This document shows, piece by piece, positions 13,878 to 38,964 of a stretch of 41,862 nt of DNA (within the stretch, counting starts at the first letter, position 1; each line of letters opens with the position of its first letter). The position numbers were made by a program, and so were the translations under genes. The stretch lies in the IMG/VR virus record IMGVR_UViG_3300045988_174050. One strand, written 5' to 3'. The DNA comes from a virus. The notes under the pieces are model-generated. The model ran no database searches. It was not told the DNA's origin and worked only from the letters and a program-made list of their open reading frames with translations.

Positions 13878-14690
13878 CTATTTCACTCGATCCCTGATTC
13901 TCTTTCCTGTCATGCTCATTGTGTAGCCTGACTCTGCTTCCAGCCGGTCGAGAGCCTCGAAAATATGCGGATTCTCCCTCATTTCGATTCTCAAATCGCT
14001 GTCCGAACTGAAAATACATCCAGCACATCCGAGCCGGTCACACCCCATGTCGTAGCAGACGTGCCGAGGCACACCGGTGTCACGCACCATCGCCCAGATG
14101 TCCGCCTCTTTGAATGCCAACATCGGACGCCAACCGAAAACGTGCCGATTACGGCTGTTTAAACGAGGCACTGAACAGAACTCCGTCAATTCGCTTCTCG
14201 CCGCCGACTCTTCCCAGCGCTCGCCAGTCACCTTCAACAGCCTCCCGGAAAATTTGTTAATGATTTTGTCCATCGGAGCAACTTTTTGTTCGGAAGTACA
14301 CCATCTGCATGTCGGTGACGGAAAAGCCACAGAGTCTTTTCTGGATGCTTTAATCCTTTCTGCTCGGAATCGTATTTTTTCGATCATCGGTCTGACCGGA
14401 TAGACGGTCACCAGTTCCACGCCAGCCGCCTTGCAAAGCGCCTGAACGTGTTCCGCTGCATTGTGCCACTCCATCCCCGTGTCAGCGTACATTGCAAGAA
14501 GTTTATCGCGCGGCACTCCCTGCCGGTCTGCCAGATCGCGCACCAGAAACAGCATCGCGTGACTGTCTTTTCCTCCGGAAACGGAGATAAAAATCTTGTC
14601 GAACTGCCGGAGGTCGAGAAGTCCATTGATGAATCGAAGCTGCTCCCGTTCCGCCGCGTCCGGCTCAAAGCCGGGCAGATAGATGTTCAT
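13878..14690 (-). CDS. PAPS-reductase / DndC-like PP-loop ATP pyrophosphatase family protein
   Basis: PP-loop motif FISVSGGKDSHAML near the N-terminus and a C-terminal Cys cluster (CYDMGCDRLGCAGC). The size and layout match phage PAPS-reductase-like proteins. Confidence 0.7.
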   Translation of the reverse strand: MNIYLPGFEPDAAEREQLRFINGLLDLRQFDKIFISVSGGKDSHAMLFLVRDLADRQGVPRDKLLAMYADTGMEWHNAAEHVQALCKAAGVELVTVYPVRPMIEKIRFRAERIKASRKDSVAFPSPTCRWCTSEQKVAPMDKIINKFSGRLLKVTGERWEESAARSELTEFCSVPRLNSRNRHVFGWRPMLAFKEADIWAMVRDTGVPRHVCYDMGCDRLGCAGCIFSSDSDLRIEMRENPHIFEALDRLEAESGYTMSMTGKRIRDRVK

Positions 14691-23060: not shown

Positions 23061-23455
23061 ACGATCAAAACCGCGACAATCTGAAAGTTTCCAACTCCGG
23101 AACATCGTTCGGCGTTACGAACGGCGATGTAACGAACGACAACCGGACAATGAACGGAAACAACATCGTTTCCGGAAATCAGGTGAACAACGCTCTCCCG
23201 GAGCGCTGGACGGTCGCGGTCATTTGCGTGACTGCAATAATTGCACTGTTGATTCTGCTGTGCGCGTTTGCGTTCTGGTGCGGCTCGTGCCGGGCAGAAA
23301 CAGCGCCGGTGACGGTAACAAATGAGATTCAGATAGGTCCGCGCGGCGGGGTTTATTACGTTGACGAAACGGGGAAACGGCATTATGTTGATCGTGAGCG
23401 TGGAATGGAGATTTATCGCGAACAACAACAATCACAGGAGGAAGAAAACGAATGA
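23057..23455 (+). CDS. Membrane protein (one TM helix, WTVAVICVTAIIALLILLCAFAFWCGSC) in the lysogeny module
   Basis: ATGA overlap with the cI stop. It has an Asn-rich N-terminus. Confidence 0.45.
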   Translation: MNDQNRDNLKVSNSGTSFGVTNGDVTNDNRTMNGNNIVSGNQVNNALPERWTVAVICVTAIIALLILLCAFAFWCGSCRAETAPVTVTNEIQIGPRGGVYYVDETGKRHYVDRERGMEIYREQQQSQEEENE

Positions 23456-23922
23456 AAGCCGCTTTGGTCGCCGTTTTTGCCTTTTTTATGCATATTTTCG
23501 TTTTAACTGCTGCGGAAACTGTGGTTGTCACATCGGTTCATGACGGGGATTCATTCAGGACAGGAGAACAATCGTTCAGGCTGTGGGGGATCGACGCTCC
23601 GGAGCTTGATCAGCGGTGGGGGACTGCGGCGCGGGAGGCGCTTCGGGAGCTGTTGACCGGACCGGACGCGGTAATGATTGAGCGGCACGGGACATCGTGG
23701 AAACGGATCGTCGTGCGGGTGGAATCATGCGGCAGGGACGTTTCGCTTGAACTGCTGAAAATGGGGCTTGCATGGTATCTGCCGGAGTTTGCGCCGAGGC
23801 GCAATGACTATCGGGAAGCGGAACAGGAAGCGCGGGAAGCACGGCGCGGGCTGTGGTCGGACGAAAACCCGGTCAGTCCGGCGGAGTGGAGAAAAACGGG
23901 AAATAACGTTATTTCCCGATAA
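23452..23922 (+). CDS. Secreted staphylococcal-nuclease-like (SNase / thermonuclease) protein
   Basis: Signal peptide MKAALVAVFAFFMHIFVLTAA. The motifs ...VHDGDSF...RLWGIDAPE... are the SNase hallmark. Confidence 0.8.
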   Translation: MKAALVAVFAFFMHIFVLTAAETVVVTSVHDGDSFRTGEQSFRLWGIDAPELDQRWGTAAREALRELLTGPDAVMIERHGTSWKRIVVRVESCGRDVSLELLKMGLAWYLPEFAPRRNDYREAEQEAREARRGLWSDENPVSPAEWRKTGNNVISR

Positions 23923-25076: not shown

Positions 25077-25222
25077 TCCTGTATGTAATGCATCTTGTTT
25101 CTGCTTAAAATCGGAGGTTCGATTCCTCTCCCGGGTACCATTTTAAACAAAAATTCCCCTCAAAATGCAAATCTTGAGGGGATAATTTTTGGCTTTTCTG
25201 TATGTAATTTTGTATGTAATCA
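25069..25222. other. attP region: the core carries a tRNA 3'-end fragment (25112-25140), flanked by four arm-type repeats TGTATGTAAT (25069-25077, 25081-25089, 25198-25207, 25211-25220)
   Basis: ggaggttcgattcctctcccgggtacca reads as a T-stem, TTCGATT loop, T-stem, 7-nt acceptor strand, discriminator and CCA. It sits immediately 3' of int. Confidence 0.5.
25157..25190. terminator. Bidirectional intrinsic terminator (cccctcaa...ttgagggg followed by ATAATTTTT; the other strand also has a T-run)
   Basis: 8-bp stem, 9-nt loop and flanking T-runs on both strands, lying between int and the convergent 25300-25629 gene. Confidence 0.55.
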
Positions 25223-25299: not shown

Positions 25300-25629
25300 T
25301 CATTCCACCCCGTACTTTTTCGCGTAACCGTCAACAGCGTCCTGCCAGACGCGCATGTTCATCCCCTCCGGGAGGTGCCGCTTTACCGCACACATGACAA
25401 TTTTCAGTTCCGCAAACTCGTGCATAATGCCTTCCACGTCTCCCCGGCTCAGACAGTCGAGCAGCTCGCCGATTTCGTGCAAAGCATGCATTTCCAGCGC
25501 CGGAATATCCATCGTTTCCGCCAGTTTTGCAACGACGTGTTCCATTCGCTTTTCGGTTTCGCTTTCCGCACCCTCCATGTACTCTGAAATCATTTCGCGG
25601 ACGGCCTTTTTCATTTCTTCGGTCATCAT
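25300..25629 (-). CDS. Hypothetical protein, possibly a MazG-like NTP pyrophosphohydrolase
   Basis: 109 aa. The acidic helical pattern ...HEIGELLDCLSRGDVEGIMHEFAELK... resembles the EExxE/D motifs of MazG-like proteins. The assignment is weak. Confidence 0.3.
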   Translation of the reverse strand: MMTEEMKKAVREMISEYMEGAESETEKRMEHVVAKLAETMDIPALEMHALHEIGELLDCLSRGDVEGIMHEFAELKIVMCAVKRHLPEGMNMRVWQDAVDGYAKKYGVE

Positions 25630-25653: not shown

Positions 25654-25869
25654 TTACATGCCGAGCATTCGCATCAAATTACCGAACTGAGGCGCGTTTT
25701 TGATCTGCTGAAGCCGCTGCATCGTTTGCGGGTTCATCATCTTTTGCGCAAAATCGACCAGCTGCGTCGCTATTTTCTGGTCGTTGCGCGTGCCGTTCCG
25801 AGCGCCCTTCTCCAGCAGGATTTGGCAATTCCCGTTTTCCTCGCGCACAATAATCGTTGTCTGATTCAT
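25654..25869 (-). CDS. Hypothetical small protein, 71 aa
   Basis: ORF in the operon with its neighbours. Confidence 0.3.
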   Translation of the reverse strand: MNQTTIIVREENGNCQILLEKGARNGTRNDQKIATQLVDFAQKMMNPQTMQRLQQIKNAPQFGNLMRMLGM

Positions 25870-25872
25870 TTG

Positions 25873-26331
25873 TTACCTCCCGAAACTGGGTTGAATGATC
25901 GGCGGCATGATGGGCGCCGGCGTTGAAATAACCGGCGATGGAGTGTAGAACTGCGGCATCGGTTGCGGCTGATATTGCGGAACGTACTGAACAGGCTGTG
26001 GAGCAGGTTGCGGCGGCAACTGTTGCGTTTTTTGCAACAGTTCCTTGATCTCTTTCATGCCGTTTTCCAGAGCGGAAAAACGCTTTTCAAGTGCCGGATC
26101 GGACGTTTCCGGCGACTGATACTTTTTCGCGATTCCGTCAAGCTCTTCCTGCAGTGCCGCAAAGTGTCGCTTATATGCCTCAAGCTCCGCCGCCGTCCGC
26201 TCTGAACTTCCCGTCGGTGACGCCTCGTGCCGTTCAGCCGTTTCCACGTGTTCAGCGTTGCCGGATGCCGGAATATCCAGCGGAGAGACGGCCGCGCCGA
26301 CTTCTTCGAATTCCATTTTTTCAGTTGCCAT
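25873..26331 (-). CDS. Hypothetical protein with a Pro/Gln-rich C-terminus
   Basis: 152 aa, ending ...QQLPPQPAPQPVQYVPQYQPQPMPQFY.... RBS GGGAGA. Confidence 0.4.
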   Translation of the reverse strand: MATEKMEFEEVGAAVSPLDIPASGNAEHVETAERHEASPTGSSERTAAELEAYKRHFAALQEELDGIAKKYQSPETSDPALEKRFSALENGMKEIKELLQKTQQLPPQPAPQPVQYVPQYQPQPMPQFYTPSPVISTPAPIMPPIIQPSFGR

Positions 26332-26531
26332 TTTTCGGTTCTCCCGTGTTTGTAATACATTACGCTGAAAACATCCGTTTCGGTAAAAAATTTTAGTGAT
26401 GTTTTCAATAAAAACGGCAAATTTTACATTTCAGAAACGCCGGTTTCAATGGCATATTTCGCGCGTAACGGGGAGGCCATCGCGCGAGGCTGAACCACAA
26501 ATTTTCAACACAAAACAAACGAGGTGAAAAA

Positions 26532-27143
26532 ATGGCGGAAGCTGTGCCTGTGGTGGACGTTATGTCCGGTAACTCTAACTCGATGCTTGATGGACTGGCC
26601 CTCGCGAATGGCGGATGCGGATTCGGCGGCGGAAACGGCGCTCTCTGGATTCTGTTCCTGCTGGTCGCTCTGGGTGGCGGAAACTTCGGTGGCTGGGGTG
26701 GTCGCAATGCTCTTGGCGCTGATCTCGCGGCCACGACTGCCGAGGCGGTGGCGGAAAACAAGGCCGGTCTGAACTACATCGGGCAGGCGACTGCCGCGCA
26801 GGGTGTTAAGCTTGACAACATCATCGCCGGGCAGTACCAGAACACCATCAACCTGTCGAATGCGATTTGCCAGCTCGGCTATCAGGACGCGATGAACTTC
26901 GCAAGCGTTCAGCAGAACCTTGCCGCTTGTTGCTGCTCTGTCAAGCAGGAAATCGCACAGGCGAAGTACGACACCGCGCTTCAGTTCGCCGCGCTCACGA
27001 AGCAGATTGCCGACGAAGGTTGCGCTACCCGGTCGTTCATCGCCGCTCAGCACACCGCCGACGTTGAGCGGGAACTTCAGGACTACAAACTGAAGGTCGC
27101 TCTGGCTGAACAGGCGAACAGCTGCAACAACTGCTGCTGCTAA
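26532..27143 (+). CDS. Gly-rich membrane-associated protein with a C-terminal Cys cluster (..SCNNCCC)
   Basis: 203 aa. The N-terminal region is GGCGFGGGNGALWILFLLVALGGGNFGGWGG (a Gly-rich hydrophobic segment), followed by helical repeats and then AACCC...SCNNCCC. RBS GAGGTG. Confidence 0.5.
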   Translation: MAEAVPVVDVMSGNSNSMLDGLALANGGCGFGGGNGALWILFLLVALGGGNFGGWGGRNALGADLAATTAEAVAENKAGLNYIGQATAAQGVKLDNIIAGQYQNTINLSNAICQLGYQDAMNFASVQQNLAACCCSVKQEIAQAKYDTALQFAALTKQIADEGCATRSFIAAQHTADVERELQDYKLKVALAEQANSCNNCCC

Positions 27144-27160
27144 CCGCATGAGGTGAGACA

Positions 27161-27490
27161 ATGGCTTGCAACAACAATTGCGCGAAATACGTCAGCCGGA
27201 GCGGCGTGCCGTTCTACTCGGCTACGGTGAGTGAGAACACTACGACCGAAACCCTGCGTGTCTGCACCTCCGCGTGCAAATTGCGCTGTTTCGGGGTGTT
27301 CGGAATTTTCGTTCCGAGCCAGCCGACGACCACCACGCTGACGGTTGATCTGACCGACTGCAACGGCAACACCGCGCCTCTTTACCTCGCTTCTACCGGG
27401 GTTCAGGCGACGGCGGCGGCGCTGGTTGCGAATACGACGCACCTTGTCACGTTCGACAAGTTCTCGGGTCAGTATTTCCTGCAGGATTAG
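27161..27490 (+). CDS. Cys/Thr-rich small protein (N-terminus MACNNNC), co-transcribed with 26532-27143
   Basis: 109 aa, beta-rich and Thr-rich, followed by a strong terminator. Confidence 0.5.
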   Translation: MACNNNCAKYVSRSGVPFYSATVSENTTTETLRVCTSACKLRCFGVFGIFVPSQPTTTTLTVDLTDCNGNTAPLYLASTGVQATAAALVANTTHLVTFDKFSGQYFLQD

Positions 27491-27505: not shown

Positions 27506-27541
27506 ATCCCCCGTTCCGGAACTCCGGTCGGGGGATTTTTT
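27506..27541 (+). terminator. Intrinsic terminator (atcccccg...cgggggat followed by a T-run)
   Basis: Directly visible hairpin followed by TTTTTT. Confidence 0.6.
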
Positions 27542-27546
27542 ATAGC

Positions 27547-27777
27547 GTGGATAGCGTGCAAATGCGTAAAAATGCGTTTGAAACAAGCGACGTTATCGGA
27601 AACGTCATCGGCAACTGGTTATACGATCAGATTGTCCAGCAGGACAAAAAAGAGGCCGCCATCATTGAGCGGCTGGAGCGGATAGAATCGCTGTTGATTG
27701 ACCTGTCGGCTGGTCGTATTCAGCAATCGCGTGTTTCAGGAACTGCAAAAGCGAGCGGTCAGGGATCGGGCATTTGA
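27547..27777 (+). CDS. Doubtful small ORF, 76 aa
   Basis: It has no RBS and overlaps the convergent 27662-28102 gene by about 115 nt. Confidence 0.15.
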   Translation: MDSVQMRKNAFETSDVIGNVIGNWLYDQIVQQDKKEAAIIERLERIESLLIDLSAGRIQQSRVSGTAKASGQGSGI

Positions 27778-28102
27778 AACAGTCGCCGTGGCATAAAAAA
27801 TTCCGGCAAAGGTCATGCGCCCGGCAGTGCTGGCATTTCCCGGAAGTAAGGTCTTCCGGATGAAACTTTTCTCCGCACGTCCGGCATGAGCGCAATCCGC
27901 GCTCTTTCAATCGCTCTGCGCATTTCTGGCATTCACGATCAGACGCAAGGCGCAAGACGCGGCAACGCGCATAAAGCGCTCGGAAACGTCCGTTTCCCAG
28001 CTCCTCCCGGTCATCGGCGTATTTCAGCAGTCGCCGTGCGTGAACCTCCGAGCAGCCGAGAACGGCCGCCGCTTCATGCGTTGTCAGAAACTCGCTTTGC
28101 AT
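27662..28102 (-). CDS. HTH DNA-binding protein (MerR/excisionase-like N-terminus) with a C-terminal zinc-finger-like Cys cluster
   Basis: Start at MQSEFLTTHEAAAVLGCSEVHARRLL. C-terminal cluster CQKC...CRTC...CQHC...CHGDCFKC. Confidence 0.45.
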   Translation of the reverse strand: MQSEFLTTHEAAAVLGCSEVHARRLLKYADDREELGNGRFRALYARCRVLRLASDRECQKCAERLKERGLRSCRTCGEKFHPEDLTSGKCQHCRAHDLCRNFLCHGDCFKCPIPDRSLLQFLKHAIAEYDQPTGQSTAILSAPAAQ

Positions 28103-28458
28103 TGTCTCCCCTGTAATGAAGCACTGCACCGCCCGGCGTCAACACATAACGCTCGCCGTTTTCCATTTCAACGACGCTTCGAGCTGTTGCAACCGAAGTT
28201 GTTTCCGGTTCGAATTCGTGTTGATCCAGCCACGGGCAGGGATCGGTCATGTCAATCGTAGGAATAACGCGCTGCTTGTTTGCCAGATAGCGCATGAAAT
28301 GATTGCGGAGCATTTCGAGGGAGGGGCGAGAACCCAATTTTAGTTCGTCCCAATGCGACAAAACCGCGTGTCCGTTTTCGTCTGTTTCAAACGAAAAATC
28401 AACGCCCGGCCTCGCCGTTGGGATCGCCGCAATAACCATTTCTTCAAGTCGCGTCATG
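28074..28458 (-). CDS. Hypothetical protein
   Basis: ORF with start chosen at MTRLEEMV. It overlaps the next gene by about 28 nt. Confidence 0.3.
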
Positions 28459-30052: not shown

Positions 30053-30484
30053 CTATTCTGCCGTTTCGGTCTTCTGCTCTGCTCGATATTTCCAGTAATA
30101 TTTGAGGCTCTCGACGTAGTTTTTAGCCATTTCCGGGTCAGATTCAGCCAGATCAACCAGATAGCCGGTTATCTGAGGGCCAACATCGCGGCGAATTCGT
30201 TTAACACCCCTGATCGTACCGGACGTTGAATCGACGCTCACACCATTGTCAGCATCGATCCACAAATCCCAGCTCGAATTTTCCCGGCTGATGTCTACAA
30301 CGTTCAGGCCGTCGGTGTAACTGACATTTGCCGTCGCGTTTTGCGGGTCAATGCCGAAATTCATCCGAGTTCCGACGGTGAATGCGCCGGTGTTATGGCT
30401 ACAGCCAGCAACCAGAAACAGCGCGGCAAACATCGCAACAAAAATGCCGGTGACTTTGAATTTCTCGCCGCACTTTTCACTCAT
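30053..30484 (-). CDS. Lipoprotein (signal peptide with lipobox LVAGC)
   Basis: MSEKCGEKFKVTGIFVAMFAALFLVAGCSHN.... Confidence 0.55.
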   Translation of the reverse strand: MSEKCGEKFKVTGIFVAMFAALFLVAGCSHNTGAFTVGTRMNFGIDPQNATANVSYTDGLNVVDISRENSSWDLWIDADNGVSVDSTSGTIRGVKRIRRDVGPQITGYLVDLAESDPEMAKNYVESLKYYWKYRAEQKTETAE

Positions 30485-30782
30485 TTTCCTTTTCCTCCTG
30501 TTCGAGCTCTCCCATCACCTCGCGGAGCTTCTCAAGGCCCAGCGGGATCGCCGCTTTGATTTTCTCCGCATTTGCCGCACCAAGTTTGCCATCGGCAACC
30601 AGCTGATCAATGTACTCGAGCGCCGCTTCCTGCCCCTGCGTCTCGACGTATTCGAGAATCGCCTGATGTGCGGCGTTGCGAAGTTCGATTGTCTGTTCCT
30701 CGCTCAAACATCCTGCCAGAGTAACCAGCAGTGCGATAGTGCAGAGTGCTACGATTTCAGTAAAAATTTTCGGTTTCATCAT
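30477..30782 (-). CDS. Lipoprotein (lipobox LAGC) with a helical mature domain
   Basis: MMKPKIFTEIVALCTIALLVTLAGCLSEE.... It overlaps the upstream TM-protein gene by 4 nt. Confidence 0.55.
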   Translation of the reverse strand: MMKPKIFTEIVALCTIALLVTLAGCLSEEQTIELRNAAHQAILEYVETQGQEAALEYIDQLVADGKLGAANAEKIKAAIPLGLEKLREVMGELEQEEKENE

Positions 30783-31096
30783 TGTTCAATCTCCCTATTT
30801 TTTGTGATTAACGGAGTGCCCGGATTTAGCCGATTATGGCATTCCTCGATTGCCGCCAGTTTCCACCCATGATTACGTACACGAACGTCGAGCCTCTCGT
30901 ACTGATCACGGACAAGATCGCTCAATTGATCGATTTTTTTCTCGTGTTCATCCATCCAGCGTGTGCAATCCTCTTTGATTACGAATCGTTTAACATCGGC
31001 ATGGAGGCCTTTTAATTCCATGACTATCCACCCGAGAAATGCCGAAATGATCCCTATTCCAACGCCAAAAACCGCGATTGCCCACTGTTCAGTCAT
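30779..31096 (-). CDS. Protein with an N-terminal TM helix and a coiled-coil domain (i-spanin-like or holin-like)
   Basis: WAIAVFGVGIGIISAFLGWIVM, followed by a charged helical region. Confidence 0.45.
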   Translation of the reverse strand: MTEQWAIAVFGVGIGIISAFLGWIVMELKGLHADVKRFVIKEDCTRWMDEHEKKIDQLSDLVRDQYERLDVRVRNHGWKLAAIEECHNRLNPGTPLITKNREIEQ

Positions 31097-31484
31097 GCGT
31101 ATTCTCCATATTTTTTCTATTGTTTCTCCATGCTATCCAGCCAAATAACCGTACTGCAACATACGCAATCAACGCTCGTGAAATCGGCAATCCATCCTCA
31201 ATCAGGATGCATAAAAACATCAAATCGGCCTCTGAGCGCGTCCATTCTGCTGGCTGAATGCGATAAATGTAATCATGCGCAACGCCAGATCGGATACTGC
31301 GAGGATCAACGCACGGAGAGACTAACGACCACGCGAATCGCGGTACGCTGACACCATCACACTCAAACCCGGATGGGACAACAAACGATTTACCGCGAAA
31401 CCTGATTTTTACAGGTTTCAGCAATCGAATGATGTTGCCGCGCTCATCCTCTCTGTGAATGTCAATATGCATTAAATCGCCCAC
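31089..31484 (-). CDS. DUF1353-like protein
   Basis: ...FVVPSGFECDGVSVP...AHDYIYR... matches the DUF1353 pattern (VPxGFxTDGxSxP ... HDxxY) as I remember it. Confidence 0.5.
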   Translation of the reverse strand: MGDLMHIDIHREDERGNIIRLLKPVKIRFRGKSFVVPSGFECDGVSVPRFAWSLVSPCVDPRSIRSGVAHDYIYRIQPAEWTRSEADLMFLCILIEDGLPISRALIAYVAVRLFGWIAWRNNRKNMENTHD

Positions 31485-32989
31485 AATTTTTCAAACGTGA
31501 ACATCGTATTGCCGTTCACGTATTTAACATGCATGATGTAATGCAAAACGTTTTCGGTGGTCGCGTCGCTTTCAGTGTGGAAAACATATGCCGATTCACC
31601 ACCAGATTTTTTTGCCGACAATGTGCATGACGTGGAAATTTTCAGCGCGATTTCCATTTCAGGATGTTCAATCGACAATTCAGGCAATGTAAACGTCAAA
31701 TTTCCGTCAGAAACATTTGTGGATGTAATTTCGCAAAACTGGCAGAATCCGTTTTCGGTCGATATCGCAACCTCTCCCGGAGTGGATACAGTCTGCTGAA
31801 CAAAATCGTTATCCAACAACCCGATTGATGTACGGAATTCGTCGAGCGCTGAAACAGCGTAGCCGCGCCCGGTCAGCGTGCCCGGCACATATTCAGGCGA
31901 AAACTCATCCGTGCTCATCGCGTAGTTTAAAACATCCAATGACGCGACATAGCATCCGCTGGTAGATTCATAGACGCTGCCCCCGCCGTATGATCCACCG
32001 ATGGCGAAAACCAGTTTTGTGATGTCATTCGCCATTGTCCCGGTTGCATTAACGGAGCCATCCAGCATGATAGTCAGCGCTCCGGATGCTCTGACCAGTC
32101 GAATATGATGCCATACGTTCGCTGTCCACTTCGTCACTGCGTCGCCCGGCGTTTTGTCTCCATCGGCATAGACGTACAAATTGTTATTATTGCTGATCAT
32201 CAATGCGAACGTACTGGACGATGTGGAATTCCCCTCCCGCGTTGAAAAAATCGTTTGCGTCCCGAGAGAATCGGTTTTCAACCATAAATTTATCGTAAAA
32301 TCTCCGGTTCCGAATGCAACAGGCAGCGTTCCGTACAGACACGACTGCCGTTCAAACCTCGCTGATTTACCGCCAGCACCATCCGGAGATTCTCCCGCCA
32401 GAGAAACTGTTCCTATTTTTGATACAGCGACGCTGTTTTCAGAGTGATCATTCAGGTCGTCAACAAACGGAAAACGCAAAACATACGTCTCATCGACTGT
32501 ATCGGTAGCACTGAATATAACCGGGCCACCGAGCAAATTTTCTGCCAGATTTTCCGGGTCAGGCAAAATCCTGTTTGTCGGAATTTCATCTCCAGACGAG
32601 ATCGGCGCCCCGTTGAACGTCAATGCGCCATCCGCCTCGGAAAATTTGTCCAGCGTCGTTTTGTTGCTATGCGTGTGTGAATTAGCCACCGCATTTTCAA
32701 CATCAGTTGAGCTGGCGGTTCCGATGGCGTTCGCCGTTTCCGCGCTGCCAGCGGTAGTCGCATGGGATGCTGTTTCCGCGCTGCCAGCTGTTTCCGCATA
32801 GTCCGCGCTATTAACTACCCCATCATCGTCCGTGTCATATACGGATTTTTTCATATCACCAGAACCACCAGCGGCAATCGGAGTCCATACGCTGCCATTC
32901 GTTGACCATTCCGCCACAGATGTTTCATCATTTATGCGAATCAACGCGAATGCTCCGTTTACCATCCCGCCAACAGTATGCATAGCCAT
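31472..32989 (-). CDS. Tail fiber protein with a LamG/ConA-like domain
   Basis: N-terminal fiber-repeat motifs (DTDDDGVVNSADYAETAGSAETAS; HTHSNKTTLDKFSEADGALTFNG). Central region ...GDFTINLWLKTDS...WHHIRLVRASGALTIMLDG... is LamG-like. Confidence 0.65.
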   Translation of the reverse strand: MAMHTVGGMVNGAFALIRINDETSVAEWSTNGSVWTPIAAGGSGDMKKSVYDTDDDGVVNSADYAETAGSAETASHATTAGSAETANAIGTASSTDVENAVANSHTHSNKTTLDKFSEADGALTFNGAPISSGDEIPTNRILPDPENLAENLLGGPVIFSATDTVDETYVLRFPFVDDLNDHSENSVAVSKIGTVSLAGESPDGAGGKSARFERQSCLYGTLPVAFGTGDFTINLWLKTDSLGTQTIFSTREGNSTSSSTFALMISNNNNLYVYADGDKTPGDAVTKWTANVWHHIRLVRASGALTIMLDGSVNATGTMANDITKLVFAIGGSYGGGSVYESTSGCYVASLDVLNYAMSTDEFSPEYVPGTLTGRGYAVSALDEFRTSIGLLDNDFVQQTVSTPGEVAISTENGFCQFCEITSTNVSDGNLTFTLPELSIEHPEMEIALKISTSCTLSAKKSGGESAYVFHTESDATTENVLHYIMHVKYVNGNTMFTFEKLWAI

Positions 32990-32992
32990 TTG

Positions 32993-33418
32993 TTATTCTC
33001 CCTCGTTAATAGTCGCCATTGCGTTTCGCACATCGTCGAGCGTCAGATTCACCAGCGATAACCATTCGGACACCCGCGCGTCCAGCAGATCGATCATCCC
33101 GCCCGGCGCCGCGTCGCTCGACAACAACGCCAGCCCCGCCAGCGCCGGTTTCAATGCGTCCTGATTCTGCAACACCGCAGCCACCCGTTCCGCCGGAATC
33201 AACGCATACAGCGCCATCACGAATGCCGAAATCGGCACCCATTCCTCCGTCGGCTCCGGTTCCGGCAATTCGATCACGGCCCCATTTACCACATCCAGAC
33301 GCGACAACGGCAAATCACCGGCGTAACCGATGTATCCGTTCGCCTCGAACCACGTGTCGCCCATCGCCGCGCCGTGGTATTCCTCCACTGCATCATTGAT
33401 TTTTCTAATCTGTCGCAT
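32993..33418 (-). CDS. Hypothetical tail protein, 141 aa
   Basis: ORF in the tail module. Confidence 0.4.
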   Translation of the reverse strand: MRQIRKINDAVEEYHGAAMGDTWFEANGYIGYAGDLPLSRLDVVNGAVIELPEPEPTEEWVPISAFVMALYALIPAERVAAVLQNQDALKPALAGLALLSSDAAPGGMIDLLDARVSEWLSLVNLTLDDVRNAMATINEGE

Positions 33419-33436
33419 ATTTTTCTCCTGAATTTT

Positions 33437-34366
33437 TCAGCTCAACGCCGCAATTTCCGCCGCCGTCAGCGCCCGGTCGAATCCGATCAGCGCCCGGATT
33501 TTCGTTCCGGCGGGAATCGTGAAAACCCCGCCCGGCAGCGCCGCTCCATCCAAAAGCCCGCCATCGTCGCCGAACACCAGAAACGTTTCCGGCGTACCGG
33601 TCAACTGCGTTGCAATCGTCGCCGCTTTCGACGTGTCCGCCGCCTCGAATACGCCGCGATCCGTCCGGATGTTGTCGAACGTCAGCAGCCCGACCCGTTC
33701 AGCCTCGGAAATCCCCGGCGTCGTGTCCGGATTGTCCGACGGCCACGGGTTCTGCGTTTCATAGAGTTCTGCGCGCGATGCCGACCACACCGTTTCGCCG
33801 GTGGTCAGATTCAACAATTTTGCGCTCCGCATATTCCCGTCAAAATTCGAAATCGGGTCGAAATCCGAATACCAGACGTCCGTTTGATCGACGGTGGTCG
33901 TGTTGGTTGTTCTGCCGTTTAAAATCAAACTCAGAACTCCGGAAACACGGCGGATCACCACGCTCACCCATTCGCCGATTGCGGAAAACTCAGCAAAATC
34001 AGACTGGAGCGCTCCAGCGTTTTTTTTAGTTCCGGTTTCAGGATTTTGCACCCGCCCTATCGTCAGATACATAAGGGAACCGGTAAACCCGACGTTTACG
34101 CTGCCCTGTGTGTCGCTGTGATAAAAAATGTAGTTTGGATTCTGCAACGCATTGAGTCTATAAATGACCTCGAATTCAAAATCATCGGAACCGATCACAT
34201 TTGAGGCGGCGGAAAATCCCGTCCACGTCCATGACACGTCGCCTGTTTTTTTGAAATTTCGCGGCGTATCCATCCGCAGCGGACTCAACCACATTCCGCC
34301 GTGGTCTGGAACCACCCCCAGAATGCAATCGCTCCGCCGCATCGAATCCAGAATTTTATCCCGCAT
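33437..34366 (-). CDS. Tail/baseplate protein with a jelly-roll (LamG-like) segment
   Basis: ...EWVSVVIRRVSGVLSLILNGR.... Confidence 0.45.
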   Translation of the reverse strand: MRDKILDSMRRSDCILGVVPDHGGMWLSPLRMDTPRNFKKTGDVSWTWTGFSAASNVIGSDDFEFEVIYRLNALQNPNYIFYHSDTQGSVNVGFTGSLMYLTIGRVQNPETGTKKNAGALQSDFAEFSAIGEWVSVVIRRVSGVLSLILNGRTTNTTTVDQTDVWYSDFDPISNFDGNMRSAKLLNLTTGETVWSASRAELYETQNPWPSDNPDTTPGISEAERVGLLTFDNIRTDRGVFEAADTSKAATIATQLTGTPETFLVFGDDGGLLDGAALPGGVFTIPAGTKIRALIGFDRALTAAEIAALS

Positions 34367-36074
34367 TGTACACCACCTCCAGCACCGTCACAATTGCCGT
34401 GATCGTCGAACCGTCCCGCAGCGTGTCGCGTTCGTCCGCCGTCTCTCGGCGCAACGAAAATGATCCATTCGCCCCGTCGGAACCGAGGTCGGCAAATGAA
34501 ATTTCGTTCCATTCCCCGGTCGGACACACCACCGCGTCACGTTCGACACCGCCCAGAATCGGCGTCAAAACGACGTTGCCGGAAAATCCCGCGTTCGCGC
34601 TCTCAATTCTGAATTTGATCGATTGCGCCTGCCAGATGTGGTCGGCCAGCGTCAGAACGGGCGTCGTTTCATCGAGATAAACGCACCGCCCCCAGGTGGA
34701 ATCGGCGACGGTGAACTCCATTACCGGGTTGCGGTCAATAATTGCGCCGTCCCGCCCTTTAATTCCACGCGGTTTCAATACCCATGATGCCACCGGCCAT
34801 CCTCCGGCGAATGTCAATTCATAACCTGAATCTGTCCACCGGCGGCGCAATCGTGAATCTGCCGAGATGTTATACCCGGAGGAATCAATCAAATCGAATT
34901 CGCATTGACCGGAAACCCCCAGATCATCCGATGTCATGACAACGGTTTCGCCGGTTTCTGCGGTTGTTTCAAACGGAATTTCCAGAACATCGGTAATAAT
35001 TGCCCCGTCCGCACCGTTCGCCCCGTCCTGACCTGCTGGCCCCTGCGGTCCGGTTTCGCCCTGTGGCCCCGGTTCTCCCTGCGGCCCGGTTTCGCCCTGT
35101 GGCCCCGGTTCGCCCTGTTCCCCCTGAACCAGTTTTTCAATTGTCCATTGCGCCGATTCAACCGGGTACCGATATCGTTTGTACCTGTCGCTGTCCGTCT
35201 GTTCCGAATGCCATTCTGTAGAACCGTTGACGCTGAATTCAACCTCTGGAGCAACCGAAATCATCGTTATAACGGTTGCTGCAATCTGGTTTTGCGTTGC
35301 GTCGGGGATTTCCCCCTCGACTCCGACGGTTCCGATCGTTTTTACAACACTGAACGTGTCACACAGAAACGCGGTGATAATCTCGTCGGTTGCGTTGTCC
35401 GTTGTTCGGTAAATCAACATCTCCAGACCGGCAACCGGCAAACTGCCGCTGCTGTCGTAATCCGTGTTCGCCCTGATCCTCATCGAGTCCATAACCAGAT
35501 CAAAAACGAATTCGCCTTTTGCTAAATTCGACTGTTCTAAATCCAGAAACGCCTCCGCGTATGGCGACTGGTCGCAATCGATCGTTGCGCCGGAATCATA
35601 CGTTTTGGAAACCTCCCCGGAAACGGTGAACGTCACGTCGGTTCCGGAAATACTGCGCTCAGAATAATACAGCGATTCATATTCTCCGGTTGAATCGAAC
35701 AGCCGGATTGTCCCCTGTTGCGGTATCGTAGAATACGACGCATTTCCAATGACGGCAGAAACGCTCGCCACCTCTCCAGCGCTAACGGTGCCGGAGAGTT
35801 CGCCCTTCAGTTTGTGAATGTAATCATTGTCAACGGTCAGTTTTGCGCCGATGCCGGAAATTTCCGCCCATGATGTGTCGCGCGTCCACGATGAAACGTC
35901 TACGCCCTGTTCACCTGCCATCGGCGTTTCAGTGCACGCAATGATTTTAATCGTTTCCCGGCTGCCAACCGCTCGTTGCGGGTTGTTCCGGCTGAATGGG
36001 TCGCCGTCCGCATCGTACCATTCCGATTTTGTAGTGTTCAAAAAAATTTCCAGCATGCTGTCCTCCGTTTTCAC
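34356..36074 (-). CDS. Tail protein with collagen-like G-X-Y repeats
   Basis: [40 protein letters not shown]. Confidence 0.6.
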
Positions 36075-36094
36075 AAAATATGGAGATTGTCAAC
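36066..36094 (-). promoter_or_regulatory. Late-operon motif copy #5 (GGTTGACA-N9-TTTTGTGAAAAC) upstream of the collagen-like tail gene
   Basis: Minus strand: ggttgacaatctccatattttgtgaaaac. Confidence 0.4.
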
Positions 36095-36098
36095 CCGT

Positions 36099-37121
36099 TC
36101 AGGTTAAAAACGTGTCCGGTTCGTCGGGTTTGATGTCGTAAAACCCATGCATGATAGCCGGTTCCGCTCCGACAGAATATTCCCTTTTAGCACTACCATA
36201 GCCGTCTTCCGGATATCCAAACAACCTAACTCGAGGTGGAACCCCGACGTTCGGTATCGGCTGAGTAGATGTATATTCTGGAGTTGGGTCATTGATTTCA
36301 ATCGATAGCATACGATAGAATTTATCAATTTCCGGCACGTTTGGAACTCCGGGATATAGGCCTCCGGTGTTTAAAACTAACTCGTCATCATAATCGGCAT
36401 TGCCATTCACAAAATGACCACCATATATGTGTAAAATGCCTTTTGATGTGGGGTTTATTTTTGTTATCACAACCCGTTCAGCCATCCGGCCATAGAATTC
36501 TCTGATTTTTCCAGAGGGGTTTCTATACAGAATTGCACCACTCGAACCGGCATAAGGGCCGGTATGTGGAATTTCAGAAAATTCAGTAGAATTCCAAAGC
36601 TCGAGCAGTTTGCTGTTCAATATATTTTCTGCCTCTTCCCTCGTAACCCCTGGGTCGATATCGGATGAATATGAAACCGCTTTCTCATATAACTCGACAA
36701 GGCCACCCGGGTATGCTGCTTTTATATAGCGCAATAGGCCTGATATTTTTTCCATATGTTCCAGATATCTGGCGTCAAATTTACCCAGAAAATATTTCAG
36801 TTTATCAAGATGGCCGCTTTCAAGCAGCATAGGCTCGTGCAAATATTCGCATATATCCTCATACGTCCAGTAAACGGGATAACCGTTGTTGTCGCTCAGC
36901 ATTGCGTGAATGTCCGGATACAGCGTGTGGTTTATAAATCTCTCTATAAATCTTTCTAAGTAAAAAAAGTAACCATCTCTATATGGCCTCGGATAAACAA
37001 ACGGATGCAGTCCCTCAAAATACCAGTCATCGACGCTCGTTTCTAATACCTTATATCCATGATATAGCCGTTCCTTCCAATTATTACCGTCACGAATTGA
37101 CATGAATTTAAAATTACTCAT
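36099..37121 (-). CDS. Hypothetical protein, 340 aa, lower GC, embedded in the tail module
   Basis: ORF containing a G-S-S-G-A segment (...GPYAGSSGAILY...). No confident family assignment. Confidence 0.45.
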   Translation of the reverse strand: MSNFKFMSIRDGNNWKERLYHGYKVLETSVDDWYFEGLHPFVYPRPYRDGYFFYLERFIERFINHTLYPDIHAMLSDNNGYPVYWTYEDICEYLHEPMLLESGHLDKLKYFLGKFDARYLEHMEKISGLLRYIKAAYPGGLVELYEKAVSYSSDIDPGVTREEAENILNSKLLELWNSTEFSEIPHTGPYAGSSGAILYRNPSGKIREFYGRMAERVVITKINPTSKGILHIYGGHFVNGNADYDDELVLNTGGLYPGVPNVPEIDKFYRMLSIEINDPTPEYTSTQPIPNVGVPPRVRLFGYPEDGYGSAKREYSVGAEPAIMHGFYDIKPDEPDTFLT

Positions 37122-37903
37122 AAATAATAATCATCCCGGAATTTTATCTGACCATCCCGCCATTGCTGGTGAACAATGCCATCAGATCGATACGCGATCA
37201 AATATCTCCCGTAATACTCAACGCCAGACGGCGGCATTTCTCGCAATTGGACGTAATATGTTTCGTTCTGATACCACCCGTACAGGTAAATCCTCCATTC
37301 TGGAGCTGAAACATTCACCGGTGCCACCTCAGACCCGATATCGGCTATCCCCCCGGTTATTCTGAATGTCGCATTCCCCGTTGGGACAACCGCGAAATCG
37401 CCGAGGTATTCGTTTCCCATCTCAACTGAACTTTTCGTATTAACCGATTGCGTGATGTTCTGCATTCCTCTCGGTATTGCCCCGATCAGCAGCAAATCTC
37501 CCAGCCCGTCATCCTCCAGCTCGATTACTGATGAAATAAATTCCGTAGGTTCGTCTGAATCAACATCGTTGAATCTCAGGTATAGGTATGAATCCTGGTT
37601 GCCGTTACCAGTAATGTTAATGGTTTCCGCCGGTATTGAAAATGTTTTGCCATACGCTGAAATTACCCCGGCGAAATGATTCTCATACGGATACGATGCC
37701 GCACCGTTTACGACTCGAATTTTTGCGCTGGTGACGTTTCCTGAATCATCTCGATCGCTCATGTCGATTATTTTAAAATAACCGGTATATTCATCTACAG
37801 CCGCCCCTCCATACGCCCCTTTGCGGTCGGTAAACGTGTTTCGCCCGCTCCGTCTGCGCGATTGCGTGACGGTAAAAATTTGTTTTGTTTCGTTATCAGC
37901 CAT
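37118..37903 (-). CDS. Tail protein, hypothetical
   Basis: 261-aa ORF between the distal tail protein and the AT-rich gene. Confidence 0.45.
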   Translation of the reverse strand: MADNETKQIFTVTQSRRRSGRNTFTDRKGAYGGAAVDEYTGYFKIIDMSDRDDSGNVTSAKIRVVNGAASYPYENHFAGVISAYGKTFSIPAETINITGNGNQDSYLYLRFNDVDSDEPTEFISSVIELEDDGLGDLLLIGAIPRGMQNITQSVNTKSSVEMGNEYLGDFAVVPTGNATFRITGGIADIGSEVAPVNVSAPEWRIYLYGWYQNETYYVQLREMPPSGVEYYGRYLIAYRSDGIVHQQWRDGQIKFRDDYYL

Positions 37904-37905
37904 GA

Positions 37906-38964
37906 TTACGCCCTGTCCCTCGGTAAATCGAACGAATTCCAGCTGGAAATTTTCGCGTCATAAATTTTAATCTGCAAATACGGATAATTTATCGGGTCGG
38001 CGAGAGCCTCCGTGTAGAGCGTTCCGTCAGATCGTAACGGCATCGGCTCGGTAATTTCCTCGTATGGCAACGAATCCCATCGCTGTTGGCGTTCTGACAT
38101 TGAAAACAAATTCGCATACGTATTTTTCGCCTTAATTACGTCATCAATACTGCCGAAAACTGGTCGAACTCGAAAATTAGTTGCATCGTCCGTGCTCGTC
38201 CACGGCGTATAGCTGTAAATGTTTTTCGGAATTTTTACGATGTTCCCGGTGTGATTGCGGAAATAGCACATTGTGCCGACGTTCAATAAATTTCTCGACC
38301 ATCCGTTTTTGTTTATCTGAATCGTCGTCGAAACATCCCAGTATTCGCGTTTTACCCGGTCGCCGGTCGATTCATATTCGATCATCGGAGTTGCCTCCTG
38401 CGGCAGCAGCAACCCGGTCAGCGGCTCTATTTTTATACCGGCGACGGTAACGTTGTTTTTGTTCACCAGCATTTCCGTTGCCCCGTTAAAATCTCTCCCG
38501 CCCTTGACGCAATATGTGAATTTGATTTCCCGGACGTATTTCGTTGTCTCGGCCACAATCTGGCATCCGGCGGTATTCAGGTTGCGAACCTCCCGCCCGT
38601 GCTCATCATATCCGGATGAAAACGCCTCCTGAATGTTCACGAAACTGGAGGTCACGTTCTGCGCCCCGAGATCCCACGGATCGCCCCTGAATTCGCGAAC
38701 CAGTTCCGCCCCGTTCGAATACGACAATGTAGCCGACACCTGAACCTTGCGATTCCTGTTCCCGATTTGATTGATGTTTATTGTATCGAGATAAAACGCC
38801 GTGTTTTCCGGATGCCTCCAGCCGCGTTGCGGCATTTTTGTGCTGGTTGCAATCTCCATCATGGAGTCACCCTCAATGATCATGGTTCTGGTCATTGTAG
38901 CGGCACCACCGGACGAAACATCCAGCTGCGAATCGTCCTGAGCGATAATGTTCACCATATTCAA
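37906..38964 (-). CDS. Distal tail protein (Dit-like by position)
   Basis: 352-aa ORF immediately downstream of the TMP, overlapping it by 4 nt. Confidence 0.45.
   Translation of the reverse strand: MNMVNIIAQDDSQLDVSSGGAATMTRTMIIEGDSMMEIATSTKMPQRGWRHPENTAFYLDTININQIGNRNRKVQVSATLSYSNGAELVREFRGDPWDLGAQNVTSSFVNIQEAFSSGYDEHGREVRNLNTAGCQIVAETTKYVREIKFTYCVKGGRDFNGATEMLVNKNNVTVAGIKIEPLTGLLLPQEATPMIEYESTGDRVKREYWDVSTTIQINKNGWSRNLLNVGTMCYFRNHTGNIVKIPKNIYSYTPWTSTDDATNFRVRPVFGSIDDVIKAKNTYANLFSMSERQQRWDSLPYEEITEPMPLRSDGTLYTEALADPINYPYLQIKIYDAKISSWNSFDLPRDRA

What the first reader, a model, noticed from the sequence alone, without database searches (positions are those of the whole stretch)
26532..27490. 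Plus-strand two-gene cassette encoding Gly-rich and Cys-cluster proteins of unknown type near attP
Gene 1 (203 aa) has a Gly-rich hydrophobic N-terminal segment (GGCGFGGGNGALWILFLLVALGGGNFGGWGG), which recalls Gly-rich membrane-active peptides and microcins. This is followed by helical repeats and then CCC and SCNNCCC at the C-terminus. Gene 2 (109 aa) starts MACNNNC and is Thr-rich and beta-rich. The two genes share one RBS-led transcript with a strong terminator. They sit between attP and the accessory operon, a typical location for lysogenic-conversion cargo. I cannot assign either protein to a known family. The mirrored Cys motifs (NCCC, then CNNNC) suggest a disulfide-linked or metal-linked pair. 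Possible roles include a toxin or bacteriocin-like factor, an envelope-modifying protein, or a novel virion or spore-surface component.
Basis: partly seen in the sequence, partly recalled or inferred. Interest (0 to 1): 0.7.

Follow-up and report, generated by a model that had tools for sequence, protein, structure and literature searches.

The report
Phage membrane stalk with swappable knob
The two genes are real and form the core pair of a widespread, uncharacterised accessory module in phages of gut Clostridia: a cysteine-rich membrane-anchored helical protein followed by a small cysteine-tipped "knob" protein shaped like the tip of a phage tail fibre, with the biological role still unknown.

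Summary
Both ORFs (26532-27143 and 27161-27490, + strand) are real genes: they have GAGGTG ribosome-binding sites, a strong terminator and dN/dS of 0.05-0.23.

Gene 1 is not an orphan. It belongs to phrog_16490 (function unknown), a family of at least 1,988 protein clusters. All hosts identified are Clostridia. The family shares a short acidic N-tail, a glycine-flanked hydrophobic helix, an all-helical domain with invariant C113 and CCC133-135, and a Cys-rich C-terminal tail.

Gene 2 gives a confident β-sandwich model. Its only structural neighbours are tail-fibre or receptor-binding-protein tip domains and small unnamed phage proteins.

Of 58 non-redundant loci, about 54 have a small Cys-bearing β protein directly after the gene 1 homolog. 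It is BclA-C-terminal-domain-like in 40, gene-2-like in 6 and of a third family in about 8. Gene 1 homologs without the Cys tail have no such partner. The pair usually sits inside a larger conserved module in the cargo zone near lysis genes and the integrase.

Best reading: a membrane-anchored stalk that docks an exchangeable knob through cysteines. The role is undetermined; exclusion or defence against other phages is my leading guess. A toxin or microcin role is not supported.

The parts
26532..27143 (+). Gene 1 (203 aa), family 'C' (phrog_16490). It has a short acidic N-tail, a Gly-flanked hydrophobic helix (aa 27-57, nt 26610-26702), an all-helical domain with invariant C113 and CCC133-135 (nt 26928-26936), and a Cys-rich tail SCNNCCC (nt 27123-27140).
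27161..27490 (+). Gene 2 (109 aa). A flexible N-terminal arm carries C3 and C7, followed by a compact beta sandwich with a fibre-tip 'knob'-like fold. C67 and G69 are invariant in its small family.
26521..26526 (+). Shine-Dalgarno GAGGTG of gene 1
   Evidence: sequence
27150..27155 (+). Shine-Dalgarno GAGGTG of gene 2
   Evidence: sequence
27506..27541 (+). Intrinsic terminator: a GC-rich hairpin followed by a T-run. Relatives keep a terminator at this position with a different stem sequence.
26366..26415 (.). Conserved operator-like pair TGAAAACAT ... ATGTT(TT/CC)CAATAAAAAC in the 200-nt divergent intergenic region between gene 1 and the minus-strand operon
27562..27777 (+). Small coiled-coil ORF after the terminator (71 aa here, 62 aa in L002-L004). 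It is conserved in close relatives. Whether it belongs to the module is unproven (hhalign P = 0.013 against the 'F' genes of other loci).
25873..26331 (-). wA: 152-aa coiled-coil protein with a P/Q-rich tail, divergent from gene 1. It is conserved together with the pair in L002-L004 and L010.
25654..25869 (-). wB: 71-aa protein conserved together with the pair. It has a weak profile link to the module's 'B' family (P = 4.6e-4).
25300..25629 (-). wE: 109-aa helical protein conserved together with the pair in relatives
27662..28129 (-). HTH plus Cys-rich zinc-ribbon-like protein (155 aa). Its homolog directly precedes gene 1 in L010, so it is a candidate regulator.

Best explanation
Gene 1 and gene 2 are the core pair of a mobile accessory (moron-type) module found in tailed phages and prophages of Clostridia.

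Gene 1 is a single-pass membrane protein. It has a short acidic N-tail, one Gly-zipper-flanked hydrophobic helix, and a helical 'stalk' of about 150 aa that ends in a Cys-rich tail. From the charge distribution, and because all partner proteins lack signal peptides, I infer that the stalk faces the cytoplasm (N-out, C-in).

Gene 2 is a free-standing beta-sandwich 'knob' of the kind found at the distal end of phage tail fibres. It carries a flexible Cys-bearing N-terminal arm.

I propose that the arm docks onto the Cys-rich tail or CCC region of gene 1. The link would be a bridging metal while in the reducing cytoplasm, or disulfides once exposed to oxidising conditions. The result is a membrane-anchored knob-on-stalk complex in which the knob is the exchangeable, ligand-recognising part.

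The cassette is transcribed independently of the flanking phage operons: it lies on the opposite strand and has its own terminator. The most likely role is an envelope-associated function in the lysogen or infected cell. My leading guess is superinfection exclusion or defence against other phages.

Shown: the genes are real, the family is large, the pair and module are syntenic, the knob class is swapped between phages, Cys enrichment is specific to the pair, gene 2 has a fibre-tip-like fold, and the canonical partner is homologous to the BclA C-terminal domain. Inferred: membrane insertion and topology, physical docking through Cys, oligomeric state, time of expression and biological role.
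For: Gene 1 family: phrog_16490 at E = 7.5e-12. The profile search finds at least 1,988 clusters of about 190-250 aa. C133-135 are invariant, and C113 and the flanking glycines are nearly invariant, in a 92-sequence alignment. Across the family there is one hydrophobic helix starting near residue 30, an acidic N-flank (3.6 D/E against 0.9 K/R) and a mean of 9 Cys. The AF2 model is low-confidence but all-helical.

Coupling: of 58 non-redundant loci with room downstream, 40 have a BclA_C-like protein, 6 a gene-2-type protein and about 8 a third Cys-tipped beta family directly after the gene 1 homolog. The BclA_C-like family matches BclA C-terminal-domain crystal structures at E = 4.4e-6 and Pfam BclA_C. 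Distant gene 2 relatives are each preceded by a protein with gene 1-like architecture. Cys enrichment is specific to the pair. The three loci examined from the lineage without tail Cys have no knob gene. In the window the cassette is inverted as a unit relative to L010, between the same flanking genes.

Cargo behaviour: neighbours are mostly endolysins, integrases or recombinases and host-border genes, and sometimes early genes. The cassette has its own terminator.
Against: No experiment or complex prediction shows that the two proteins bind. The gene 1 model is poor (pLDDT 47.5), so the stalk, coiled-coil and oligomer ideas are inferences. The hydrophobic core is short (about 11-13 residues between Gly-rich flanks), so true membrane spanning is unproven. 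The charge bias that sets the topology is weak on the K/R count. A knob fold usually works outside the cell, which fits poorly with a cytoplasm-facing complex. No PADLOC defence model matches any module protein, and nothing ties the module directly to exclusion. No consensus promoter was found for gene 1. Gene 2 is not detectably homologous to the BclA_C-like partners, so 'same slot, same role' rests on position. The host of this particular phage is unidentified.
Confidence: 0.45

Rival explanations
1. A structure that works outside the cell. The module would build a disulfide-cross-linked appendage or coat element that is assembled in the cytoplasm and exposed only after phage lysis or mother-cell lysis. 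It would sit on virions or on spores, in the manner of exosporium BclA and ENA fibres, where an anchor protein carries a BclA-type knob through Cys-bearing N-terminal connectors.
For: The canonical partner is a true BclA C-terminal-domain homolog. Gene 2 has a fibre-tip fold. No module protein other than gene 1 has a signal peptide (sequences), as is the case for ENA proteins, which assemble in the cytoplasm (PMC11362473). Gene 1 tails are Cys-, Tyr- and Gly-rich, and the A and wA proteins have Q/N/P-rich low-complexity regions. In L011 the module lies between head and tail genes. The predicted N-out, C-in topology would put the stalk in the mother-cell cytoplasm, where spore coats assemble (inference).
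Against: The module's position varies, including early replication regions and prophage ends, which is unusual for core virion parts. Two of the four named host MAGs (Gemmiger, Christensenella) belong to genera that are, to my knowledge, non-sporulating. Gene 2 hits neither DUF3992 nor DUF4183 nor any Ena or BclA structure. A membrane helix has no obvious place in a siphovirus virion. There is no collagen or other shaft.
Confidence: 0.2
2. A lysis-timing pair. Gene 1 would be a holin-like or lysis-regulator membrane protein with one transmembrane helix and a large soluble domain. Gene 2 would be its small binding partner. This would be analogous to T4 holin T and antiholin RI (that comparison is from my own knowledge).
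For: The architecture fits: one hydrophobic helix plus a domain of about 150 aa. Endolysin genes are the commonest neighbours, with Amidase_2 or Amidase_3 in 10 of the loci surveyed. Gene 1 homologs follow endolysin plus holin in L007 and follow a phage lysozyme in L081. No endolysin was recognised in the window.
Against: In the window the pair is on the opposite strand from the late and lysis-region genes, has its own terminator, and lies about 3 kb from the TM and lipoprotein genes at 30053-31484. Phages carrying the family also have separate recognisable holins. The module occurs in early regions in L001 and L005. Adjacency to lysis genes is also what the cargo hot spot between lysis genes and the attachment site would produce.
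Confidence: 0.1
3. A toxin, bacteriocin or microcin-like membrane-active factor with a partner.
For: The only support is the Gly-rich hydrophobic segment and the cargo-type location.
Against: There is no leader or cleavage motif and no immunity or export gene nearby. Gene 1 is a conserved 200-aa protein under strong purifying selection along its whole length. It is strictly syntenic with proteins that lack signal peptides. No toxin or defence profile matches.
Confidence: 0.03

Closest known systems
BclA C-terminal domain knobs and their anchors on Bacillus and Clostridium spores (exosporium nap; L-ENA with ExsL anchor and L-BclA tip)
   Same: In most phages the protein after the gene 1 homolog is a real BclA C-terminal-domain homolog. 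The logic of a small gene cluster encoding an anchor plus a knob that carries a Cys-bearing N-terminal connector, with no signal peptides, matches the ENA descriptions (PMC11362473, PMC12357932).
   Different: Gene 2 itself is not a BclA_C, DUF3992 or DUF4183 protein. There is no collagen stalk. The anchor is a membrane-helix protein unrelated to ExsL, ExsY or CotZ. The genes are phage-borne and occur in some hosts from genera not known to sporulate.
Distal knob domains of phage tail fibres and receptor-binding proteins (for example Pseudomonas phage Pa193 gp47, PDB 9b45)
   Different: Gene 2 is only 109 aa, has no shaft or virion-attachment domain, lies outside the tail module on the opposite strand, and has no sequence similarity to any annotated fibre.
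Prophage superinfection-exclusion membrane proteins (for example lactococcal Sie2009, HK97 gp15, T4 Imm; from my own knowledge)
   Same: Small bitopic membrane proteins encoded by independently transcribed cargo genes near the integrase or lysis region, or by early genes.
   Different: No sequence or profile relationship was found. Known examples are single proteins, without a Cys-coupled knob partner or a multi-gene module. No functional test exists here.
T4 holin T with antiholin RI (from my own knowledge)
   Same: A protein of about 200 aa with one transmembrane helix and a large soluble domain, paired with a partner of about 100 aa.
   Different: The window has no adjacency to lysis genes, there is no homology, and the predicted topology is the opposite (acidic N-tail out).

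Membership tests
phrog_16490 (PHROGs, function unknown) | Significant match to the family profile | tested here: met
   Gene 1 matches at E = 7.5e-12 over residues 25-174. The only tblastn hits in cultured phages are two Clostridium perfringens phages.
BclA_C (PF18573; TNF/C1q-like knob) | Sequence or profile match to the BclA C-terminal domain | tested here: not met
S/L-ENA endospore appendage subunits | DUF3992 jellyroll core domain | tested here: not met
S/L-ENA endospore appendage subunits | Cys-bearing N-terminal connector ahead of the beta domain | tested here: met
   Gene 2 has C3 and C7 in a disordered arm (residues 1-8, pLDDT about 53). The whole gene 2 family has an MxCxxC-type start.
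F-ENA endospore appendages | DUF4183 domain with an N-terminal hook | tested here: not met
   No Pfam hit for gene 2. The defining feature is taken from PMC12357932.
Phage tail fibre or receptor-binding protein | Distal knob fold | tested here: inconclusive
Phage tail fibre or receptor-binding protein | N-terminal shaft or virion-attachment region and a place in the tail gene module | tested here: not met
   The protein is 109 aa with no shaft. It lies on the opposite strand, outside the tail genes at 31472-40811.
Holins | Small membrane protein with a transmembrane helix, encoded next to the endolysin | tested here: inconclusive
   One hydrophobic helix is present. Endolysin adjacency holds in about 10 loci plus L007 and L081. 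It does not hold in the window, where no endolysin was recognised, and there is no holin Pfam hit.
Class II bacteriocins and Gly-rich microcins | Short precursor with a leader peptide, plus immunity and export genes | tested here: not met
   Gene 1 is a conserved 203-aa protein with no leader motif and no such neighbours.
Known anti-phage defence systems (PADLOC-DB 2.0) | Match to any defence-protein profile | tested here: not met
   There are no hits for gene 1, gene 2, wB, wE or four proteins of the canonical module. wA gives only coiled-coil noise.
YjcZ-type Gly-rich tiny membrane sporulation proteins (a resemblance from memory) | Match to the NCBIfam model | tested here: not met
   NCBIfam returns no family for gene 1 at E <= 1.
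Superinfection-exclusion proteins | Blocks infection by related phages when expressed | not testable with these tools
   This needs plating assays on lysogens with and without the cassette.

The most novel reading that the evidence does not exclude
The module is a previously unrecognised class of phage-encoded envelope device, widespread in gut Clostridia phages. A conserved Cys-rich membrane stalk presents interchangeable fibre-tip or BclA-type knobs, docked through cysteine or metal links. The device would act as a programmable recognition element, for example a new mode of superinfection exclusion or defence, or a phage-conferred cell-surface or spore-surface appendage.
Probability: 0.3. 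Interest if true: 0.75.

Novelty: new variant of a known kind. Interest (0 to 1): 0.55.

Why it matters
Most genes in gut-phage genomes have no known function. This analysis turns two "hypothetical" ORFs into a defined, testable unit. Gene 1's family has at least 1,988 clusters, an invariant CCC motif, a strictly syntenic partner and at least three interchangeable knob families.

If the stalk really docks swappable knobs, it would be a new way for temperate phages of Clostridia to alter or guard the envelope of their hosts. Those hosts include major human-gut and pathogen lineages. It would also show that BclA-type and tail-fibre-tip domains can be used as free-standing modules.

If the module turns out to be a routine structural accessory, the census still supplies an annotation handle for thousands of unnamed proteins.

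Tried and rejected

2. An invertible phase-variation switch. A perfect 10-nt inverted repeat brackets the cassette. Such a repeat is expected about once by chance in a region this size, and about 3% of the time at exactly these positions (my own estimate). The downstream arm is not conserved in L002-L004. The orientation difference from L010 is therefore an evolutionary rearrangement.

3. The window's wA, wE and small plus-strand ORF as divergent copies of the canonical A, E and F genes. Not supported: hhalign P = 0.023, 0.15 and 0.013. Only B against wB is suggestive, at P = 4.6e-4.

4. The 157-161 aa proteins that precede distant gene 2 relatives as true gene 1 homologs. The evidence is marginal: hhalign P = 1.2e-4 over 24 columns, plus a shared ENxAG(L/I)NYI motif. 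I treat them as matches in architecture only.

5. Structure of gene 1. AF2 with 92 sequences gave pLDDT 47.5, so no fold search was attempted.

6. Sequence searches of PDB with the gene 1, gene 2 and A-family profiles found nothing. A consensus of weak Pfam hits over 92 family members gave only noise.

7. A diderm host inferred from spanin-like genes. This is not decisive, because monoderm Firmicutes phages also encode lipoproteins. The portal protein's nearest cultured relatives are under 30% identical. The host remains unknown.

8. AFDB50 fold search: the library was unavailable.

9. Literature: no paper mentions these PHROGs or the C. perfringens phage HMD-PC1.

Full report
**1.

ORFs 26532-27143 (+, 203 aa) and 27161-27490 (+, 109 aa) exist with exactly the sequences quoted. 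Each ATG is preceded by GAGGTG. The genes are 17 nt apart. A GC-rich hairpin at 27506-27536 with a T-run follows gene 2. Relatives keep a terminator at the same place with a different stem sequence, which argues that it is functional.

Both ORFs are under strong purifying selection: dN/dS is 0.05-0.23 against three relatives. No consensus sigma-70 plus-strand promoter was found upstream of gene 1. The only good match in the 200-nt intergenic region (10 of 12) points toward the divergent minus-strand genes. That region holds a conserved operator-like pair, TGAAAACAT ... ATGTTyyCAATAAAAAC.

**2. Setting**

The window is a complete temperate siphovirus-type genome. It encodes the large terminase subunit, portal, head-morphogenesis protein, major head protein, tape measure, tail fibres, RecT, RecE, a replication initiator, Rha/Ant and an integrase. 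A tRNA 3' fragment just after the integrase is the likely attP core.

The cassette lies on the opposite strand to both flanks. It sits between the post-tail small genes and three minus-strand genes that precede the integrase region.

**3. Gene 1 is a member of a very large, unannotated family**

Gene 1 matches no Pfam, NCBIfam or PADLOC model. A consensus of weak Pfam hits over 92 family members gives only coiled-coil noise. It does match phrog_16490, a family of unknown function, at E = 7.5e-12.

A single-sequence search found 25 relatives. A profile search found at least 1,988 clusters at E <= 1e-3, all about 190-250 aa and none with a functional name.

In a 92-sequence alignment, C133-C134-C135 are invariant. 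C113, several glycines flanking the hydrophobic helix, K93, L115 and T137 are conserved in at least 90% of sequences.

Family-wide statistics are:
- one hydrophobic helix starting near residue 30, with 5-6 glycines on each side;
- an acidic N-flank (3.6 D/E against 0.9 K/R);
- a mean of 9 Cys per protein, with frequent Cys at positions equivalent to 171, 192, 198, 202 and 203.

AF2 gave a low-confidence but consistently all-helical model (pLDDT 47.5; helices 16-25, 37-47, 62-111, 134-162 and 167-195). I therefore ran no fold search on it. A sequence search of PDB found nothing.

Named hosts are all Clostridia. They are MAGs of Oscillospiraceae, Christensenella, Gemmiger and Lachnospiraceae and two Clostridium perfringens phages. 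The host of this particular phage is not identified.

**4. Gene 2 is a knob**

The gene 2 family is small: five close clusters and about a dozen small-protein representatives among 1.84 billion. Members share an MxCxxC-type N-terminus, invariant C67 and G69, and a conserved C-terminal TY.DKFS.KFF motif.

In BFVD the best matches are small uncharacterised gut-phage proteins (TM-score 0.65-0.69, E down to 4.5e-6). They are followed by the C-terminal domains of proteins annotated as receptor-binding protein, tail fibre, hyaluronidase tail fibre or collagen-repeat protein. No Ena, BclA, C1q or TNF structure appears. My remembered "Ena-like" lead is therefore rejected.

**5. The pair is the conserved core of a larger module**

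Look-ups of diverse family members and one metagenome scan gave 68 non-redundant loci.

Of the 58 loci with room downstream:
- 40 carry a protein of about 135 aa directly after the gene 1 homolog. It is BclA_C-like (Pfam hit in L011), and its profile matches the BclA crystal structures 3TWI, 2Z5W and 1WCK at E = 4.4e-6.
- 6 carry a gene-2-type protein.
- About 8 carry a third family of Cys-tipped beta proteins (starting MGCCCNKY, MCKCK, MSCQYC and similar). The two subgroups of this family are homologous to each other (hhalign probability 96%).
- Four have no clear partner.

Gene 2's family is not demonstrably related to either of the other two (P = 0.002-0.2). Distant gene 2 relatives (L018, L020) are each preceded by a 157-161 aa protein with the same architecture as gene 1: a Gly/Ala-rich hydrophobic helix, an ENRAG(I/L)NYI motif, a helical region and a Cys-rich tail. 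Sequence homology between these and gene 1 is only marginal.

Upstream of gene 1 homologs, a protein of 130-150 aa with a Q/N/Y-rich N-terminus and a coiled-coil end (A, phrog_21718, function unknown) and a protein of about 80 aa (B) are both present in 41 of 56 loci. A alone is present in 8 more. Helical E and small F genes often follow the partner.

The window lineage (L002-L004, L010) instead carries wA, wB and wE. Only wB shows a weak profile link to its canonical counterpart B.

**6. Evidence that the two proteins work together through cysteines**

Cys content is 4.4% in the gene 1 family, 4.9% in the gene 2 family and 2.6% in the BclA_C-like partners. It is 0-0.8% in A, B, E and F.

In all 55 partner-bearing loci the last 30 residues of the gene 1 homolog contain at least one Cys (mean 3.3). 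In 54 of the 55, the partner has a Cys within its first 45 residues.

The one lineage whose gene 1 homologs lack tail Cys (C-termini ending LKNA, some on very large contigs, one of which encodes a multisubunit RNA polymerase) has no knob gene in any of the three loci examined. This counts as a single lineage, not three independent cases.

The cassette behaves as a unit. L010 has the same flanking genes, an XkdW-like gene and an HTH/Cys-rich gene on one side and wA-wB-wE-integrase on the other, but gene 1 and gene 2 lie in the opposite orientation there.

Against L002, gene 2 is about four times more diverged than gene 1 (pN 0.167 against 0.044). Against L010 it is less diverged than gene 1 (pN 0.259 against 0.325). 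This suggests that gene 2 alleles are shuffled relative to gene 1.

**7. Where the module sits**

A batch Pfam scan of 123 flanking proteins found these as the commonest neighbours:
- endolysins (Amidase_2 in 6, Amidase_3 in 4);
- integrases and resolvases;
- host genes at prophage borders;
- less often early genes (ERF, Rha, Gp157, DnaB).

Individual loci show the same spread. The module lies in an early region in L001 and L005, between head and tail genes in L011, after a holin at a prophage end in L013, and after endolysin plus holin in L007. This is how mobile cargo (morons) behaves, not a fixed structural gene.

**8. Mechanism**

The best-supported picture is a membrane-anchored helical stalk (gene 1) that docks an exchangeable knob (gene 2, or a BclA_C-like or third-class protein in other phages) through the stalk's Cys-rich tail and the knob's Cys-bearing arm.

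The N-tail is acidic, an Arg follows the helix, and none of the partner proteins has a signal peptide. I therefore infer an N-out, C-in topology with assembly on the cytoplasmic face. There the cysteines would more likely bind a metal than form disulfides. Disulfides would form only after exposure to oxidising conditions.

Docking, topology, oligomeric state and role are all inferences. For the role I rank the options as follows:
- exclusion or defence at the envelope first, because of the cargo location, independent transcription, and presence in both early and prophage-end contexts;
- a released appendage on virions or spores second (BclA homology, fibre-tip fold, Cys/Tyr/Gly-rich tails, no signal peptides);
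- a lysis-timing pair third;
- a toxin or microcin role last.

**9. Comparison with known systems**

The nearest functional analogy is the anchor-plus-knob logic of Firmicutes spore appendages. There, a BclA-type knob carrying a Cys-rich N-terminal connector is attached to a Cys-bearing assembly (PMC11362473, PMC12357932). Membership fails on the defining domains: gene 2 has no DUF3992, DUF4183 or BclA_C domain.

Resemblance to tail-fibre tips is at fold level only. Nothing links the module to catalogued defence systems.

**10. Verdict**

The feature is real and conserved, and it is more interesting as a module than as a two-gene oddity. Its function is still unknown. I rate it a new variant of the anchor-plus-knob kind. 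I give a 0.3 probability that it is a new class of phage envelope device.

Noticed in passing
window 23452-23922 (+): A 156-aa protein with an N-terminal hydrophobic, signal-like segment and a staphylococcal-nuclease (thermonuclease) domain. It is encoded just upstream of the integrase on the same strand and is possibly an exported nuclease carried as cargo.
   Followed up: partly
window 30053-31484 (-): The region after the tail genes encodes a DUF1353 protein, a 105-aa protein with an N-terminal TM helix plus coiled coil, and two proteins with lipobox-like signals (LAGC, VAGC). No recognisable endolysin or holin domain was found anywhere in the window.
   Followed up: partly
window 2336-2794 (+): An opposite-strand 152-aa ORF inside the head-tail gene block. 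It has a Cys-rich N-terminus (MSCDGNCATCPIQCG), a coiled coil and a TM helix, so it is a second moron-like Cys-rich membrane protein in the same phage.
   Followed up: no
window 40913-41455 (+): An opposite-strand 180-aa protein with a zinc-ribbon-like N-terminus and a TM helix (phrog_14275, function unknown), next to the tape-measure gene.
   Followed up: no
window 25100-25135: A tRNA 3' fragment (GGAGGTTCGATTCCTCTCCCGGGTACCA) immediately after the integrase gene. It is the likely attP core and points to integration into a tRNA gene. ARAGORN finds no complete tRNA.
   Followed up: partly
window 26366-26415: Conserved operator-like pair TGAAAACAT / ATGTTTTCAATAAAAAC in the divergent intergenic region between gene 1 and the minus-strand wA-wB-wE genes. 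It is also present in L002-L004.
   Followed up: partly
window 13878-14690 (-): A PAPS-reductase-like gene (phrog_424) in the early region. This kind of gene is often described as an auxiliary or DNA-modification gene in phages.
   Followed up: no
window 27161-27490 compared with L002 10628-10954: Against L002, gene 2 is about four times more diverged than gene 1 (pN 0.167 against 0.044). Against L010 it is less diverged than gene 1. This suggests recombinational shuffling of knob alleles.
   Followed up: partly
protein P0167 (166 aa): This protein looks like a fusion of a gene-1-like N-terminus (Gly-rich hydrophobic helix, AGLNFI motif) with the C-terminal half of a gene-2-like protein. It is either a real fusion or a frameshift or assembly artefact joining the two adjacent genes.
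   Followed up: no
L081 4046-4537 (+): In one phage contig of the lineage without tail Cys, a ferritin-family gene follows the gene 1 homolog and a phage lysozyme lies upstream. The E proteins of the canonical module also carry ExxH motifs.
   Followed up: no
window 10783-11496 (-): A 237-aa protein with a weak match to RNA polymerase sigma-factor region 4 (phrog_1740), lying between the early genes and the terminase. It may be a phage-encoded late regulator.
   Followed up: no
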